From assembly GCA_036639875.1 (NCBI GenBank), contig JAVWHX010000001.1, forward strand, positions 87,155 to 151,154: a DNA stretch of 64,000 bases. Reading direction: 5' to 3'. The notes below the pieces were generated by a model. The model searched no databases. It saw only the letters and a program-made list of their open reading frames with translations, and had not been told where the DNA came from. Positions 9,288 to 56,707 of this stretch are shown piece after piece (the stretch's first letter is position 1; every line of letters begins with the position of its first letter). The position numbers were made by a program, and so were the translations under genes. This DNA is from Coprobacillus sp. (GTDB taxonomy: Bacteria > Bacillota_I > Bacilli_A > Erysipelotrichales > Coprobacillaceae).

Positions 9288-10987
9288 AAAATATAATCTG
9301 ATGGATCTCCATGTTCTTGTTCTAAGAGACGACTAATTTCTTCACTATCATCATTAAGAATAGAAAAGGCAATATTTGTCGCATGATCCCCAACTCTTTC
9401 TAAAGAAGCCGCAAGATCAGAATAAAGCATCCCCTCTCTAGGAGCAGTTTCTTTACGCTTGATATCTTTAAGATATCCTTTTTGTAAGCTTGCTTCTTTC
9501 TTATCAATTAATTCTTCTAATTTTAATATTTCATTAAGATGAGCTAACGACTTTTGAGCAAACATCTCAATACTTAATTCTAACTCAGAATTAACCATCG
9601 TTAATAACTCTCTAATTTCTCTTTTATGGTTTTCGGTAAATTTATATTTTTTTTCTTTACACTTAACAGTGATTTTACCAATTGTACGAGCATGGTCCCC
9701 AATTCTTTCAATATCAGCAATAACATGGAAAAGTGGACCAATCATTCTTGAATCTTCATCAGGTAAAGGTGATTGATTAATTCGATTTAAATATTCAAAG
9801 ATAGCATGATTTAAATAATCAATATGCTCCTCATTACGAATAATCTCCTCCTCAGTAGAAGTATCCACTTCTAATAAAGAGTTCACTGCAATATTTAGAT
9901 TATCTCTAGCTAATGAAGACATACGTTCTACTTCATGAATAGTTTGGGGAATAGCTGTTGTTGCAGAATAAGCCTTTTCACTAATAAATTGTGTTGAGAA
10001 TCCTTTATCTTCATCATCACCAGGAACAATATAATATGTTAACTTAGCAATATATTTAGCCATTGGGAATAAACAAATAACTTCAAAGATTTTAAAGATA
10101 GTATGTGCATTAGCAACATTTCTAGCCATTGTTGCATTTAATGCAGCACCTGTCAAACCTTGAGATTGAGTCAGTGATAAAATTATGTTTTCTACATATG
10201 GCATAAATAATTGTAAAACAATAACAATTAATGTAGAACCAAATATATTCAATAAGAAATGAATATAAGCAGCTCTTTTGGCATTCTTCTTTCCACCAAT
10301 ACTAGCAATTAAAGCTGAAACACAAGAACCCATATTACATCCTAAAATCAAATAAAAACAAATATGTAAAGAAACCAATCCTTGTGAAGCTAACAATATC
10401 ACAATCCCAACAGTTGCTGAAGAGGACTGCAAGATAGCCGTCACTATAAACCCAACAAGTATTGCTAAAAATGGATTTGTTAATGAAGATAAGGTATCAA
10501 CCATGATTGGTGCATCTTTTAAAGATGTCATTGCAGCTGACATAGATGATAAACCAACAAACAAAATACCAAACCCTAATATAACTTCACCAATCTTTTG
10601 AATATTGGCTTTTTTAGAAAACATTACCATTACAACACCAGTAAAAACAAACAATGGTGCAACTTCAGATAAATTAAAAGCAATTAATTGACCCGTAATT
10701 GTTGTCCCAATATTCGCACCCATTATAATACCAGTAGCCTGATATAAATTCATTAATCCAGCATTTACAAAACTAACTACCAAAACAGTTGTTGCTGAAG
10801 AAGATTGGATAATAGCAGTAAACCCCATTCCAACCAAAGTCCCAACAAATGTATTCTTAGTCATTTTTTCTAGTATATTACGTAATTTCGCTCCAGCTAC
10901 ATTAGCAAGCGAATCACTCATCATTTTCATTCCATAAAGGAAAAGACCTAACCCTCCTATTAATGAAAAAATCGATACCATATCCAT
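9284..10987 (-). CDS. Na+/phosphate cotransporter family protein with C-terminal PhoU-like domain
   Basis: N-terminus MVSIFSLIGGLGLFLYGMKMMS and a duplicated QSSSAT motif typical of NptA-type transporters. C-terminal PhoU-like repeats (ERIGDHA, ERVGDHA). AAGGAGG RBS before the ATG at 10987. Confidence 0.85.
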   Translation of the reverse strand: MDMVSIFSLIGGLGLFLYGMKMMSDSLANVAGAKLRNILEKMTKNTFVGTLVGMGFTAIIQSSSATTVLVVSFVNAGLMNLYQATGIIMGANIGTTITGQLIAFNLSEVAPLFVFTGVVMVMFSKKANIQKIGEVILGFGILFVGLSSMSAAMTSLKDAPIMVDTLSSLTNPFLAILVGFIVTAILQSSSATVGIVILLASQGLVSLHICFYLILGCNMGSCVSALIASIGGKKNAKRAAYIHFLLNIFGSTLIVIVLQLFMPYVENIILSLTQSQGLTGAALNATMARNVANAHTIFKIFEVICLFPMAKYIAKLTYYIVPGDDEDKGFSTQFISEKAYSATTAIPQTIHEVERMSSLARDNLNIAVNSLLEVDTSTEEEIIRNEEHIDYLNHAIFEYLNRINQSPLPDEDSRMIGPLFHVIADIERIGDHARTIGKITVKCKEKKYKFTENHKREIRELLTMVNSELELSIEMFAQKSLAHLNEILKLEELIDKKEASLQKGYLKDIKRKETAPREGMLYSDLAASLERVGDHATNIAFSILNDDSEEISRLLEQEHGDPSDYIL

Positions 10988-49130: not shown

Positions 49131-49823
49131 TTATTTCATTTCATCTAAATCATCAACATTGTTATATAACAAAATATTTTTATCTTGGTTTATTAACACA
49201 CCATTTTTTAAATCAATTTTATAATCAGCACATGTTGCTTCCAATGTATCCGTTATTATTTTATTTGTTGTTATTTTTTTTGTTTTCGACTCATATAAAA
49301 CAAATGCCTTTGAATTCATATTTACATAAATACTTGAGAATGCATCTAACTGCTTTTGTTCTCCATTAATTGTAATCTGAGTTTTCTCTAAAAATATATA
49401 TGTTGATTCTCCATCATATAAAAATCCAAGATCACTTACTATTTTATTATCATTAAAAATCCCTTCTTGTTGAGAAGCAAAAACAGAAAAATGATTAGCT
49501 CTAAAATATTGTTTTGATCTTGCGTTGACATAAATCATATCTTTTGGTAAAACAATACTATTTGATGATTCCAAATAGAGTGGCATTGCACTTAATGTCA
49601 CATTACTTGTGCATCTTCCTTCACATGTTTTTTCTTTATCATAATAAAGTTCTGTTCCTTTTTTATAAGAAATGATTGTTCCAGCTCCAGGTTGAGTAGC
49701 TGTCTCTTTTAAAGTGAAAGTTGAACTATCATTTAAAAAGAAATAAAGCGCTGCTGCCATAACCAAAAATATAAAGCTTGCTATTATTGCATAAATAAAC
49801 GATTCTTTTTTCTTAAGTTTCAT
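49131..49823 (-). CDS. bitopic membrane protein carrying only the shared juxtamembrane domain
   Basis: 230 aa. N-terminal anchor FIYAIIASFIFLVMAAALYFFL and a QITINGEQKQLD motif. GGAGGT RBS. 4-nt overlap with the upstream gene. Confidence 0.75.
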   Translation of the reverse strand: MKLKKKESFIYAIIASFIFLVMAAALYFFLNDSSTFTLKETATQPGAGTIISYKKGTELYYDKEKTCEGRCTSNVTLSAMPLYLESSNSIVLPKDMIYVNARSKQYFRANHFSVFASQQEGIFNDNKIVSDLGFLYDGESTYIFLEKTQITINGEQKQLDAFSSIYVNMNSKAFVLYESKTKKITTNKIITDTLEATCADYKIDLKNGVLINQDKNILLYNNVDDLDEMK

Positions 49824-50306
49824 ACTTTCTTACCTCCATTTACCAAAAAATATAATTCATACAAAAATAAATATATGGAATACATTGTTATACATATTCC
49901 TGTTAAAATATAAACAACGAGAAACATCATTGGTGTATGCATGATAATCATATATTGAAATATCATGTTGTTAATGATAAGTGCCACAGCACATAACAAT
50001 ATATTAATTGCTACATAAACAAACATCTTTAAATGTTCTATAAATACCAAACATAAAATCGCCTGACATATATAAAACATGACATGAACAGCATTAAGAG
50101 ATTGGAAACGAAAAACAGAACTGATTATAAAACACATAAAAGAAAAACAGCTTATAAGTTCCAATCTTGCTTTTGTATTTAACATCATCAATAGATGTTT
50201 CCATATATATATTTTTTCATTTTTCTTAGATAAAATGACAATTGTATAAGTACATAATACAAGTAAGATAGAAACAACTATATATTCTTTTAATTGTGCA
50301 ATATTA

Positions 50307-50323
<17 letters not shown>
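49820..50323 (-). CDS. small polytopic membrane protein (4-5 TM), unknown family, last gene of the ATPase cassette
   Basis: 167 aa and very hydrophobic. Overlaps the epsilon-like gene by 17 nt and the next gene by 4 nt. I could not recognise an a-subunit LRLxxN-type motif. Confidence 0.7.
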
Positions 50324-52788
<2,465 letters not shown>

Positions 52789-52792
52789 ATGG

Positions 52793-54109
52793 TTATTCCA
52801 TAAATGCAGAAAAAATCTGTACCATTTCTTCTACATCTTTTGCAGAATATTTATATTGTTTAAATGCTTCAAGAAGTTTTTGACCACGTCTTAATTTTGT
52901 TTGAAGTGCTTCACCCATTTCATCAATATTCGCTAACTCATAAATATCTCGTGTTTCCAAATAACTTAAAAGTTCACGTCTTGTTTTACTTCCTATTTTT
53001 TTAACTTGTTTTTCTTGTACACTTCCTCCTAATCTTGATACACTCAAACCATAATCAATCGCCGGTTTTTGCCCTTTATCAAAATTCTTCTTACTTAATA
53101 CAATTTGTCCATCAGTGATTGAAATAATATTCGTACTTATATACTCTGTTATATCTCCACCTCTTGTTTCCATGATAGGTAAAATCGTAATACTTCCTCC
53201 ACCAACATGTTGACATCCTTTTTCTAAAAGTCTTGAATGTGTATAGAAAATATCACTTGGATATGCATCTCTTCCTGGTTCTTTTCCTGTCAATAATGCT
53301 ATTTCACGATAGACATCTGCATGACGTTTTAAATCATCAATAACTACCAATACATCCTTACCCTGCATCATATAATCTTCTGCTATTGATAAACCAACAT
53401 AAGGTGTCAATGACATAACAGGAGGCTGTTCATCATTGTTCGCACAAAGGATAATTGTATGCTCCATTGCCCCTTGATACATAAGCTGTTGATAAATATC
53501 TTTAACTGACTTCTTTGTTTTCCCAATAGATATGTAAATACACAATACGTCTTTACTTTTTTGATTACAGATTGTATCTAAAGCAATTTGTGTTTTTCCA
53601 GTTTTTTTATCTCCAAGAATAAGTTGTCGTTGCCCTTTTCCAATAGGATACAATAAATCGATACCTGATATTCCTGTATACAACGGTCTATTAACACTGT
53701 TTCTTGACATTATTGATATTGCATTATGTTCAATGGGTTGTGATTTATAGTTTGCAAAATACTGTGCATTCATCTGATCTTTCCCAAACATATCGACAAT
53801 ATGTCCAATTGAATCTTCACTAAAAGTTGCTTCAAATTTTCTCCCCGTTAGTGTTGCTTCATCTCCTACATAGATATCCTTTTCTATCTTCACTAATGAT
53901 ACAATGACACTATCTTCTTTAATAACATTAATATATCCTTTTGCTTTATTCCCTATTTGAACTTCTTCAAAATAACCAGCGTTCATTAAACCTTTGATTT
54001 CTACAACATATTTGTATATGCGTATGATTCTTCCAGTTTCAAAAACATTAGTTGAAGCTTGCATATTATGAATCTTGCTTGTTATTTTTTCTTTCATAAA
54101 ATCATTCAT
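52793..54109 (-). CDS. F1 alpha-like subunit (C-terminally shortened)
   Basis: Walker A QLILGDKKTGKTQIALDTICNQ, VVIDDLKRHADVYREIALL, GREAYP-like GRDAYPSDIFYTHSRLLE, ITDGQIVL, and PAIDYGLSVSRLGG (arginine-finger region). 438 aa, against roughly 500 aa for typical alpha subunits. Confidence 0.9.
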   Translation of the reverse strand: MNDFMKEKITSKIHNMQASTNVFETGRIIRIYKYVVEIKGLMNAGYFEEVQIGNKAKGYINVIKEDSVIVSLVKIEKDIYVGDEATLTGRKFEATFSEDSIGHIVDMFGKDQMNAQYFANYKSQPIEHNAISIMSRNSVNRPLYTGISGIDLLYPIGKGQRQLILGDKKTGKTQIALDTICNQKSKDVLCIYISIGKTKKSVKDIYQQLMYQGAMEHTIILCANNDEQPPVMSLTPYVGLSIAEDYMMQGKDVLVVIDDLKRHADVYREIALLTGKEPGRDAYPSDIFYTHSRLLEKGCQHVGGGSITILPIMETRGGDITEYISTNIISITDGQIVLSKKNFDKGQKPAIDYGLSVSRLGGSVQEKQVKKIGSKTRRELLSYLETRDIYELANIDEMGEALQTKLRRGQKLLEAFKQYKYSAKDVEEMVQIFSAFME

Positions 54110-54121
54110 ACTGCCTCCATT

Positions 54122-54873
54122 CTACAGACTAAAATCATATAATCTGTCTTTATATCTAATTCGATACCCTTCTAATATTTCGCTATCTTTCAATTGTATT
54201 AATTCTTTTGAAGATTCAACAGGATTAACTTCTTTATTTGAATAAATATATATATGTGGATCATTGTTAAAAATATAATCTTTCAAATAACTTATAAACA
54301 AATATAAATCAAATGACTGTTTTTCTTCACAATACTTCTTAAAAATAGTAAATTGGGCTGGAAGAGTTTTTAAAACATCATTTATCACTTCTATTTGTTG
54401 ATTTGAATTAAGGTTCATCAAACCATAATAAACATCTATATCAAATAATGATAAAAGGTCTTCATAATCTTGAACTGAAATAAAGTTCTCTTTTTTTAAT
54501 TCATTAATTGCTTCTAACGATAAATTTAAAGAATTTATTTCAAAATCACATTTCACCATTCTATAATGTTCATCAAAACGATTGTTTTGATAAACGGCCT
54601 GTTTGATAAAACTTTGTTCTCTCTTTTTTTCTTCTTTTTCAATTTTTGTATTTATAATCTCATGAGACGAGATACTGAGTAAGTCGATTTCAGCTTGCTT
54701 TTCTAATAATTCTGCAGTTTTCTTTTCTAATAACTCATCATAAAGATCTGCCATAACAACTCCTACTTTTTTATATATCTGTTGATGAATATCTTGACAT
54801 ATTTTTTTAACAGCAAAAAGTAAGAATGCAGCTAATGATACCATCACTAAAATAACTGCTATAAAACTTATCA

Positions 54874-54874
<1 letters not shown>
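54122..54874 (-). CDS. b-like peripheral-stalk protein with unrelated C-terminal globular domain
   Basis: 250 aa. One N-terminal TM helix (ISFIAVILVMVSLAAFLLFAV), an approx 70-aa charged helical segment (ELLEKKTAELLEKQAEIDLL ... EKEEKKREQ), then an approx 140-aa domain of unknown type. Occupies the position of atpF/atpH. Confidence 0.55.

Positions 54875-56707
<1,833 letters not shown>

What the first reader, a model, noticed from the sequence alone, without database searches (positions are those of the whole stretch)
49820..50323. Unknown polytopic membrane protein occupies the slot where a stator/channel subunit would be expected
A 167-aa protein with 4-5 hydrophobic helices is overlap-coupled to the epsilon-like gene (17 nt) and to the next envelope gene (4 nt). 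It is much shorter than subunit a, and I cannot find the conserved helix-4 Arg motif (LRLxxN type). It is the best candidate for the X0 membrane partner that would connect the F1-like head or c-like ring to the anchors of the surface proteins.
Basis: inference. Interest (0 to 1): 0.6.

Follow-up and report, generated by a model that had tools for sequence, protein, structure and literature searches.

The report
Orphan membrane subunit of ion-blind F-ATPase
This small five-helix membrane protein belongs to an unannotated family found only in, and in every copy of, an ATP-synthase-like gene cluster of gut Firmicutes that has no ion channel, and in some species it is fused to a surface-protein anchor, so it probably links the motor to the cell-surface proteins.

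Summary
Window 49820-50323 (-) encodes a 167-aa protein with five predicted membrane helices. It overlaps the epsilon-like gene by 17 nt and the next gene by 4 nt.

It is a real gene family:
- 184 representatives at 50% clustering, nearly all about 170-200 aa.
- dN/dS of 0.09-0.16.
- No Pfam, NCBIfam, PDB-sequence or Foldseek relative.
- No detectable link to subunit a (hhalign 1.4%), AtpI (0.3%) or subunit c (0.3%).
- Unlike the mycoplasma X0 proteins, and without the helix-4 Arg.

It is bound to the cassette. It sat directly after epsilon-like in all 13 loci I opened by hand. In 399 Bacilli genomes, the same seven carried both genes. In 69 species found through the c-like gene, 57 have it as a separate gene. 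Eleven have it fused to the downstream 230-aa anchored protein, and one more looks fused but scores below threshold. Some lineages place it between epsilon and gamma.

My best reading (confidence 0.45) is a non-conducting structural membrane subunit. With the anchored protein, it would tie the rotor-stator assembly to the surface proteins. A dedicated assembly factor and a rotor-attached module remain open.

This scan has reported the cassette before on other DNA. The characterisation of this subunit family is what is new here.

The parts
49820..50323 (-). The 167-aa five-TM protein that is the subject of this report. It belongs to an unannotated family of about 170-200 aa.
   Evidence: ORF. 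Family of 184 representatives. dN/dS 0.09-0.16. No Pfam or NCBIfam hit.
50228..50290 (-). TM1 (residues 12-32), running from outside to inside. It is absent in one Lachnospiraceae clade that carries the fused form.
50183..50209 (-). Short cytoplasmic amphipathic helix (residues 39-47) after a K/R-rich loop. It carries the family motif G-[LI]-F-x-x-L. The window protein deviates at two positions (H43, L45).
50111..50176 (-). TM2 (residues 50-71). Position 62, in the middle of the membrane, is R/K in about 72-75% of the family and N/Q in most of the rest. The window protein has F.
50045..50092 (-). TM3 (residues 78-93). H80 at its outer end is conserved in 62% of the 133-sequence family alignment but in only 37% of the wider species sample.
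49940..50032 (-). TM4 (residues 98-128) with L115, N119 and Y124. Position 115 is L/I in 88% of species and is never Arg.
49826..49933 (-). TM5 plus the cytoplasmic end (residues 131-166). It carries a conserved aromatic stripe (F144, Y148, Y151) and a basic C-terminus.
50307..50657 (-). Epsilon-like gene, which overlaps the target by 17 nt. It is a true AtpC homologue: its profile gives weak hits of 26-37 bits on ORFs of canonical AtpC size (131-160 aa), read here as AtpC.
50654..52006 (-). F1 beta-like subunit of the cassette.
52003..52788 (-). Gamma-like subunit.
52793..54109 (-). Alpha-like subunit.
54122..54874 (-). b-like protein: an N-terminal TM helix, a long helix (residues 2-85 in a low-confidence model) and a C-terminal domain of unknown fold.
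54874..55119 (-). c-like subunit (81 aa counted from the conserved Met), with Thr where the ion-binding carboxylate would be.
49131..49823 (-). 230-aa single-TM anchored protein with an outside domain. It overlaps the target by 4 nt. In at least 11 species its homologue is fused to the C-terminus of the 5-TM module.

Best explanation
The gene encodes a cassette-specific structural membrane subunit of an ion-blind F-type ATPase. It is a compact bundle of five helices, with a four-helix core (TM2-TM5). The N-terminus is outside and the C-terminus is in the cytoplasm. It has no ion path. It is made in step with epsilon through translational coupling. Together with the single-TM 230-aa protein encoded next to it, it forms the membrane base beside the carboxylate-free c-ring. 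This base most likely sits on the stator side. There it would take the place that subunit a holds in a normal enzyme and give the b-like stalk and the surface-protein ectodomains a common membrane anchor. ATP-driven rotation of gamma, epsilon and the c-ring could then be turned into work at the cell surface.

Shown here: the gene is real and under purifying selection; it has five TM helices; it has no detectable homology to known families; it is present in every cassette examined; it is fused to the anchored protein in some species.

Inferred: membership of the assembled complex, the stator side, and contact with the c-ring and the b-like stalk.
For: Coupling and synteny:
- Overlaps of 17 nt and 4 nt with the neighbouring genes.
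- The same position directly after epsilon-like in 13 of 13 loci opened by hand, down to 15-20% identity.

Co-occurrence:
- In 81 genomes of the family, the cassette-type beta (73% identity against 41-46% for canonical beta) occurs only in the three genomes that have this protein.
- In a 399-genome class sample, strong epsilon-like hits and 5-TM hits fall in the same seven genomes.
- In 69 species loci seeded only with the c-like gene, 57 have a separate gene, 11 a fused one and 1 a fused type below threshold.

Placement among the ATPase genes:
- In RF39-type lineages the order is c-b-alpha-beta-epsilon-5TM-(anchor)-gamma, which puts the gene inside the ATPase gene set.

Fusion and topology:
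- The fusion to the 230-aa anchored protein occurs in two separate clades. hhalign gives 98.6% for the C-terminal half.
- The fusion fits the predicted topology: the C-terminus is inside and the next TM helix leads outward.

Nature of the protein:
- Purifying selection, with dN/dS 0.09-0.16.
- The AlphaFold2 model is confident and compact.
- No conserved ion-path residues, which matches a c-ring without a carboxylate.
- The genome, and the closed genome G066, carry a separate canonical subunit a elsewhere.
Against: - No direct evidence places the protein in the complex or next to the c-ring. Multimer modelling was not available.
- It evolves fast: 25-27% identity between genomes whose canonical subunit a is 69-70% identical. 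That is even faster than AtpI (34-38%). This fits an accessory factor as well as a loosely constrained anchor.
- When the gene order changes, the gene stays with epsilon (a rotor subunit) rather than with the b-like gene.
- The family's most conserved polar feature, a mid-membrane R/K at position 62, is unexplained and is missing from the window protein itself.
- The b-like stalk could not be modelled (pLDDT 44), so the need for a stator partner rests on analogy with canonical F1Fo.
Confidence: 0.45

Rival explanations
1. It is a dedicated assembly factor, functionally like AtpI/UncI. It would be a small polytopic protein that helps the divergent c-like subunits form a ring, or helps insert the anchored proteins, and would not be part of the finished machine.
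For: - It is a small, hydrophobic, poorly conserved protein encoded inside an atp-like operon, as AtpI is.
- Its rate of change (25-27% identity) is closest to that of AtpI (34-38%) between the same genomes, and far from subunit a (69-70%).
- From my own knowledge of N-ATPase operons, the AtpI-like genes there also follow epsilon.
- No invariant functional residues were found.
Against: - There is no sequence or profile similarity to AtpI (hhalign 0.3%; no PF03899 hit).
- It is kept in every cassette examined, whereas atpI is dispensable in many bacteria (own knowledge).
- It is covalently fused to a structural ectodomain protein in two clades, which is unusual for a transient chaperone.
Confidence: 0.2
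2. It is a rotor-attached module. The helix bundle would sit on or inside the c-like ring and turn with it. The fused or neighbouring 230-aa ectodomain would then be rotated outside the cell. This resembles the CPR variants, noted elsewhere in this scan, in which the c-like hairpin itself carries an ectodomain.
For: - The gene is always coupled to epsilon, a rotor subunit, and stays with it when the order changes.
- The fusion to an ectodomain protein parallels the ectodomain-bearing c-like subunits in earlier notes of this scan, which are unchecked.
- The model is a compact bundle.
Against: - Nothing shows contact with the ring.
- No homology to subunit c (hhalign 0.3%).
- If this protein turns with the rotor, the b-like stalk is left with no polytopic membrane partner encoded in the cassette.
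Confidence: 0.15
3. It is a subunit a that has diverged beyond recognition. It would have lost the Arg and the half-channels after the c-ring lost its carboxylate. In this reading it has the same role as in the best explanation, but by descent.
For: - The topology matches (N-terminus out, C-terminus in, five helices).
- The last two helices form a hairpin of 31 and 36 residues in the window protein.
- hhalign against subunit a is marginally above the negative controls (1.4-2.0% against 0.1-0.3%). It lines family N119 up with the Asn of the RLFGN motif.
Against: - A probability of 1.4% is not evidence of homology.
- Foldseek gives TM 0.20 to a solved subunit a, with no hit below E = 0.6.
- The aligned 'Arg' position is L/I in 88% of species and is never R.
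- In the family consensus the hairpin turn is polar and the helices are of ordinary length.
- The size is 167-190 aa against 204-239 aa, and the gene sits after epsilon rather than before c.
Confidence: 0.08
4. It is an unrelated membrane protein, such as a small transporter, an immunity protein or a regulator, that merely travels with the surface-protein genes.
For: No function can be read from the sequence, and the flanking genes encode envelope proteins.
Against: - It is never found away from the cassette in the genomes searched.
- In some lineages it lies between the epsilon and gamma genes.
- It shows no transporter-like family or fold.
Confidence: 0.05

Closest known systems
F-type ATP synthase subunit a (AtpB, Pfam PF00119)
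   Same: It is a polytopic membrane protein encoded with c, b, alpha, gamma, beta and epsilon genes. It has five helices with the N-terminus outside and the C-terminus inside, and it ends in a helical hairpin. It is the only polytopic protein available to sit beside the ring.
   Different: There is no profile or fold similarity. It has no essential Arg. It is about 50 residues shorter. Its gene lies after epsilon, not before c. It evolves about three times faster in identity terms. Its ring partner has no ion-binding carboxylate, so no ion path is needed.
AtpI/UncI (PF03899), and the AtpQ/AtpR genes of N-ATPase operons
   Same: These are also small, weakly conserved, hydrophobic proteins encoded inside ATPase operons. 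Their rate of divergence is comparable. From my own knowledge, the N-ATPase versions also follow epsilon.
   Different: No similarity was detected (hhalign 0.3%). This protein is larger (167-190 aa against about 110-140 aa). It is present in every cassette examined and is fused to a structural ectodomain protein in some species.
X0 membrane proteins of the mycoplasma Type 2 and Type 3 'F1-like X0' ATPases (MMCAP2_0581/MSC_0624/MMOB1610, 12 TM helices; MMCAP2_0577/MSC_0620)
   Same: They play the same conceptual role, as non-Fo membrane partners of an F1-like ATPase thought to pass ATP-driven motion to surface proteins (PMC12994834, PMC3369863).
   Different: The mycoplasma clusters have no c or b homologue. 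They use a 57-kDa 12-TM protein and an 87-kDa protein with two C-terminal TM helices. Here a real c-like ring and a b-like stalk are kept, and the extra membrane protein is a 19-kDa five-helix bundle. It gives no hit to any NCBIfam model, including the MSC_06xx models.
Non-respiratory F-type ATPase loci of Omnitrophota next to type-4a pilus genes and giant ORFs (Seymour et al. 2023, PMC10066038)
   Same: This is a published case of an F-type ATPase homologue outside the mollicutes that is linked to surface structures and giant proteins.
   Different: It is in a different phylum with different partner genes. No equivalent of this five-TM family is described there, and I did not test those loci.

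Membership tests
F-type ATP synthase subunit a (PF00119) | A match to the ATP-synt_A profile | tested here: not met
   No Pfam hit at E <= 1 for the window protein. No recurrent hit among 133 family members at E <= 10. hhalign of the family profile against 27 local subunit-a sequences gives 0.5-2.0% probability. The same genomes each give one clear PF00119 hit elsewhere.
F-type ATP synthase subunit a (PF00119) | The essential Arg in the penultimate helix (R-[LI]-F-[GA]-N motif) | tested here: not met
   TM4 has no conserved Arg. The position that the weak hhalign match places under the Arg is L/I in 88% of 68 species and never R. R72 of the window protein is not conserved.
F-type ATP synthase subunit a (PF00119) | The subunit-a fold (long tilted H5/H6 hairpin against the ring) | tested here: not met
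   Foldseek of the AlphaFold2 model against the PDB finds no hit below E = 0.6. A solved subunit a (9byk_a) ranks 40th with TM 0.20. This compares a monomer model only.
AtpI/UncI (PF03899) | Profile similarity to AtpI | tested here: not met
   No Pfam hit. hhalign against 27 AtpI-like ORFs taken from upstream of atpB in relatives gives 0.3%.
AtpI/UncI (PF03899) | Acts in c-ring assembly and is absent from the finished complex | not testable with these tools
   This needs purification of the complex or genetics.
F-type subunit c (PF00137), as a duplicated hairpin | Profile similarity to subunit c | tested here: not met
   hhalign gives 0.3%. The Foldseek match to fused c-c constructs (9jc2) has TM 0.48 and E 1.7, which is a generic helix bundle.
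Mycoplasma F1-like X0 membrane proteins (MSC_0624/MMCAP2_0581 and MSC_0620/MMCAP2_0577 families) | 12 TM helices at 57 kDa, or a large protein with two C-terminal TM helices, and a match to the NCBIfam models | tested here: not met
   This protein has five TM helices and is 19 kDa. No NCBIfam hit for the window protein at E <= 1 and none recurrent among 133 members. The architectures are taken from PMC12994834.
New family: epsilon-adjacent 5-TM protein of the ion-blind F-type ATPase cassette | About 170-200 aa; a four- or five-helix bundle; the G-[LI]-F-x-x-L cytoplasmic motif; a basic or polar residue in mid TM2; an aromatic stripe in TM5 | tested here: met
   The window protein aligns over its full length with the family. 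It lacks three of the consensus residues (H43 for G, L45 for F, F62 for R/K).
New family: epsilon-adjacent 5-TM protein of the ion-blind F-type ATPase cassette | Encoded directly after the epsilon-like gene of a cassette that has a carboxylate-free c-like gene | tested here: met
   Window; 13 of 13 hand-checked loci; 68 of 69 species loci by HMM, with the last one evident by eye.

The most novel reading that the evidence does not exclude
The five-helix protein, with the anchored ectodomain protein that is fused to it in some species, is the torque-reaction or output element of a previously undescribed ATP-driven rotary surface machine. This machine is widespread in Gram-positive gut bacteria (Lachnospiraceae, Erysipelotrichaceae, RF39-type Bacilli and others). 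The protein would be an evolutionarily new, non-conducting replacement for subunit a that couples a proton-blind c-ring to giant surface proteins.
Probability: 0.35. Interest if true: 0.85.

Novelty: new variant of a known kind. Interest (0 to 1): 0.62.

Why it matters
How F1-like ATPases that have lost their ion path pass force across the membrane is an open question. Even in the mycoplasma systems the 'X0' sector is undefined in structure and mechanism (PMC12994834).

This cassette keeps a true c-ring and a b-like stalk, so the one extra polytopic protein is the key unknown. I could show three things about it. It is a universal part of the cassette. It is unrelated to subunit a. It is repeatedly fused to a surface-protein anchor. 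Together these give a concrete and testable candidate for the coupling element.

The survey also found the cassette in two named strains whose record titles are not marked as MAGs: Kineothrix alysoides KNHs209, which I know as a cultured isolate, and Candidatus Merdisoma sp. HCP28S3_D10. If they can be grown, purification, deletion and cryo-EM become possible.

The family has no Pfam or NCBIfam model. At least one public gene call truncates it.

Tried and rejected
- Subunit a homology: rejected as undetectable (Pfam, hhalign with shallow and deep profiles, Foldseek).
- AtpI and subunit c homology: hhalign 0.3% each, at the level of the negative controls.
- PDB profile search: no hits at E <= 10.
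- Pfam and NCBIfam scans of all 133 aligned members: only scattered noise.
- The search for related loci with the 5-TM alignments failed, because no stretch was conserved enough. I seeded the genome-wide survey with the c-like subunit instead.
- Word-based homologue searches recovered only 2-8 proteins. The exhaustive HMM search was needed to see the family.
- AlphaFold2 of the b-like protein from three sequences gave pLDDT 44. I did not use it or send it to fold search.
- The 'long tilted hairpin' idea for TM4 and TM5 was dropped. In the family consensus the turn is polar and the helices are of normal length.
- A K62-E156 salt bridge was considered and dropped, because the two residues do not co-occur across members.
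- The phylum-level genome search repeated the class-level sample and added nothing.
- Literature searches found no description of this cassette or protein in Firmicutes.
Full report
**Observation.** The minus strand of the window carries a tightly packed operon. The genes, in order, are:
- a 1,972-aa protein;
- a 518-aa anchored protein;
- a c-like subunit;
- a 250-aa b-like protein;
- alpha, gamma and beta;
- a 116-aa epsilon-like protein;
- the 167-aa target (49820-50323);
- a 230-aa anchored protein;
- a 489-aa protein and a 3,091-aa giant protein.

The target's ATG lies 17 nt inside the epsilon-like gene. Its stop overlaps the next start in an ATGA. Pfam and NCBIfam recognise c, alpha, gamma and beta. 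They return nothing for the target at E <= 1.

A hydropathy scan finds five TM segments in the window protein and in five homologues. The K/R-rich loops (33-53, 96-99 and the C-terminus) place the N-terminus outside and the C-terminus in the cytoplasm. The helices are 12-32, 39-47 (short and amphipathic), 50-71, 78-93, 98-128 and 131-166.

**It is a real family.** Word-based searches found only a handful of relatives. An exhaustive profile search of 1.84 billion cluster representatives found 184 proteins at E <= 0.001 and 69 at E <= 1e-10. Nearly all are 165-205 aa and align end to end.

Two pairs of moderately diverged genes give dN/dS of 0.09 and 0.16. These values are similar to those of the flanking epsilon-like gene (0.07) and anchored-protein gene (0.08).

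Recurrent features of the family:
- a cytoplasmic G-[LI]-F-x-x-L motif after TM1;
- a basic residue in the middle of TM2 (position 62 in window numbering), which is R/K in 72-75% of members and N/Q in most of the rest;
- L115, N119 and Y124 in TM4;
- an aromatic stripe (F144, Y148, Y151) in TM5;
- a basic C-terminus.

No polar position is invariant. The window protein is atypical at three of these sites (H43, L45, F62). R72, which is invariant among the four closest sequences, is not conserved more widely.

**It has no known relatives.**
- A PDB profile search gave no hits at E <= 10.
- Foldseek of the model against the PDB gave no hit below E = 0.6. A solved subunit a ranked 40th with TM 0.20. 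The best compact match was a generic four-helix arrangement (fused c-c, TM 0.48, E 1.7).
- Pfam and NCBIfam scans of all 133 aligned members returned only scattered noise.
- I built local profiles from relatives' canonical operons: 27 subunit a, 27 AtpI-like and 21 subunit c sequences. hhalign gave 1.4-2.0% against a, 0.3% against AtpI and 0.3% against c. Negative controls gave 0.1-0.2%.

The mycoplasma X0 proteins are a 57-kDa 12-TM protein, a 19-kDa cytoplasmic protein and an 87-kDa protein with two C-terminal TM helices. Those clusters have no c or b homologue (PMC12994834; PMC3369863). Neither architecture nor sequence matches the protein studied here.

**It belongs to the cassette.**
- Every locus I opened had the gene directly after the epsilon-like gene. 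This covers two genomes of the same family, two of a sister family, four more in the class, and five metagenome or MAG contigs.
- Three distant contigs (15-25% identity in this protein) carry the same 11-gene layout as the window.
- Among 81 genomes of the window's family, a cassette-type beta (73% identity, about 717 bits) occurs only in G033 and G066, apart from the window's own genome. Those two are the only other genomes with a real 5-TM hit. All other beta hits are canonical, at 41-46% identity.
- In a 399-genome sample of the class, strong epsilon-like hits (over 80 bits) and 5-TM hits fall in the same seven genomes. The weaker epsilon hits (26-37 bits) fall on ORFs of canonical AtpC size, which I read as AtpC and as showing that the epsilon-like protein is a true epsilon homologue. 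Related genomes are not independent, so I attach no statistic to these counts.
- G066 is a single-contig genome that carries both a canonical atpB and the cassette. The two systems therefore coexist in one chromosome.

**A wider survey, independent of the target.** I seeded a scan of one genome per GTDB species with the c-like subunit. In total 294 stretches encode a relative, and the best 80 loci were returned. By their record titles they come from:
- Erysipelotrichaceae;
- Lachnospiraceae (Roseburia, Butyrivibrio, Agathobacter, Kineothrix alysoides KNHs209, Candidatus Merdisoma sp. HCP28S3_D10, Mobilitalea);
- Eubacteriales Family XIII;
- Oscillospiraceae;
- 'Mycoplasma sp. CAG:472' and other Bacilli or Mollicutes-labelled gut MAGs.

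Sixty-nine of the 80 loci contain an epsilon-like gene with room downstream. Of these, 57 have a separate 5-TM gene immediately after it. Eleven have a protein of about 405-410 aa in which the 5-TM module is fused to the 230-aa anchored-protein module. The remaining locus (L115) has the same fused type, but its polytopic part falls below the HMM threshold.

The fusion occurs in two clades:
- In one (L100, L101, L103, L143, and database protein P0136) the 5-TM part scores 86-102 bits. The C-terminal half matches the anchored-protein profile at 98.6% hhalign probability.
- In the other, a Lachnospiraceae clade, the polytopic part is divergent and has lost TM1. This leaves TM2-TM5 as the core.

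The fusion agrees with the predicted topology: the C-terminus is in the cytoplasm and the next TM helix leads the ectodomain outward.

Gene order also varies. In RF39-type lineages it is c-b-alpha-beta-epsilon-5TM-(anchor)-gamma, so the gene lies inside the ATPase gene set.

**Rates of change.** Between the window and four distant cassettes, identities are:

| Protein | Identity (%) |
|---|---|
| beta | 61-72 |
| c-like | 60-65 |
| alpha | 58-59 |
| gamma | 37-43 |
| epsilon-like | 26-34 |
| b-like | 23-27 |
| 230-aa anchor | 23-27 |
| 5-TM protein | 21-25 |

Between G000 and G066 (and G031, a congener of G033, for the canonical genes), canonical subunit a is 69-70% identical, c is 79%, b is 55-60% and AtpI is 34-38%. 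The 5-TM protein is 25-27% identical (G000 against G066 and G033). It therefore does not behave like an ion-path subunit under tight constraint. It behaves like a peripheral or accessory component.

**Interpretation.** The cassette keeps a rotor (gamma, epsilon, c-ring) and a stalk (b-like). It has no subunit a, no delta, and no carboxylate on c (Thr at that position). Earlier reports of this scan made the same points on this and other DNA. The 5-TM protein is the only polytopic membrane protein that every cassette encodes. It is translationally coupled to a single-copy subunit. In some species it is covalently joined to one of the ectodomain-bearing anchors.

The most economical reading is a structural, non-conducting membrane subunit. 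Together with the 230-aa protein, it would form the membrane base that connects the motor to the surface proteins. It most likely sits on the stator side, in the place of subunit a. I put this at 0.45.

The rivals are:
- A dedicated assembly factor, functionally like AtpI (0.20). The fast evolution and lack of invariant residues favour it. Universal retention and the fusions argue against it.
- A rotor-attached module that turns the ectodomain (0.15). The constant linkage to epsilon favours it.
- A subunit a diverged beyond recognition (0.08). This implies the same role as the best explanation, but by descent.
- An unrelated passenger protein (0.05).

None of these can be separated further without a multimer model, a purified complex or genetics.

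**Unexplained.** The mid-membrane Arg/Lys in TM2 is the family's most conserved polar feature. It has no acidic partner in the TM segments I inspected of the c-like, b-like, 230-aa and 518-aa proteins (inspection). It is replaced by F, M, L or E in the window's own clade.

**Limits.**
- The structure is a monomer model built from 11 sequences.
- The b-like model failed (pLDDT 44).
- Taxon names come from record titles only. Two MAGs labelled Muribaculaceae are probably mis-binned.

**Novelty.** I found no paper that describes this cassette or this protein in Firmicutes. Beven et al. [quoted passage not shown] Seymour et al. 2023 report non-respiratory F-type ATPase loci in Omnitrophota. This scan has already reported the cassette several times on other genomes. 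What is new here is the definition of the 5-TM family, its universal presence in the cassette, its fusions, and its lack of any link to subunit a.

Noticed in passing
L100:13317-14546, L143:12030-13253, L079:4918-6132, L115:10390-11610 (and L080, L101, L103, L104, L111, L113, L114, L116): In two clades the 5-TM module and the 230-aa anchored protein form one polypeptide of about 405-410 aa. In the Lachnospiraceae clade the polytopic part has lost TM1 and is very divergent (11-22 bits).
   Followed up: yes
window 50138-50140 (codon 62 of the target); family alignment A6: A residue in the middle of TM2 is Arg or Lys in about 72-75% of the family and Asn or Gln in most of the rest. In the window's clade it is F, M, L or E. 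I saw no acidic partner in the TM segments of the cassette proteins.
   Followed up: partly
L064:8130-13412 (G618), L081, L086-L093, L098, L110, L112, L129, L147: There is a variant gene order, c-b-alpha-beta-epsilon-5TM-(anchor)-gamma, in small-genome Bacilli ('Mycoplasma sp. CAG:472' type). Here gamma has moved behind the 5-TM gene.
   Followed up: yes
L107:2-1385 and 9986-10973; L108 likewise: In two Lachnospiraceae MAGs, beta, epsilon and the 5-TM gene lie about 8.6 kb upstream of a c-like gene that is followed directly by an anchored-protein gene. This is a third layout, or possibly a second cassette.
   Followed up: no
window 50187-50189 (TTG, codon 45 of the target): A public gene call for a 99%-identical sister sequence (P0001, 123 aa) starts at this internal TTG. 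That call loses TM1 and the cytoplasmic motif, so the family is partly hidden by truncated annotation.
   Followed up: partly
G000 contig C108:3-1630 (outside the window): A third pair of PF00006 hits is present: a partial ORF followed by a 483-aa ORF. It did not match the cassette beta at E <= 1e-100. It may be a V/A-type A-B pair or contamination (the MAG is 5.9% contaminated).
   Followed up: no
window 54122-54874: The b-like protein has a conserved C-terminal domain of about 150 aa (NDPH and EG.[KR]I.Y motifs) with no Pfam match. AlphaFold2 from three sequences gave only pLDDT 44.
   Followed up: partly
family members P0100, P0077, P0103, P0145, P0063, P0079: Several family members carry C-terminal tails of 40-80 aa that are strongly acidic or mixed in charge and of low complexity. 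By the predicted topology these tails are cytoplasmic.
   Followed up: no
L096 (Kineothrix alysoides KNHs209, NZ_JPNB01000002.1:702779-723015) and L084 (Candidatus Merdisoma sp. HCP28S3_D10): The complete cassette, including the 5-TM gene, is present in the genomes of two named strains whose record titles are not marked as MAGs, so bench work may be possible.
   Followed up: partly
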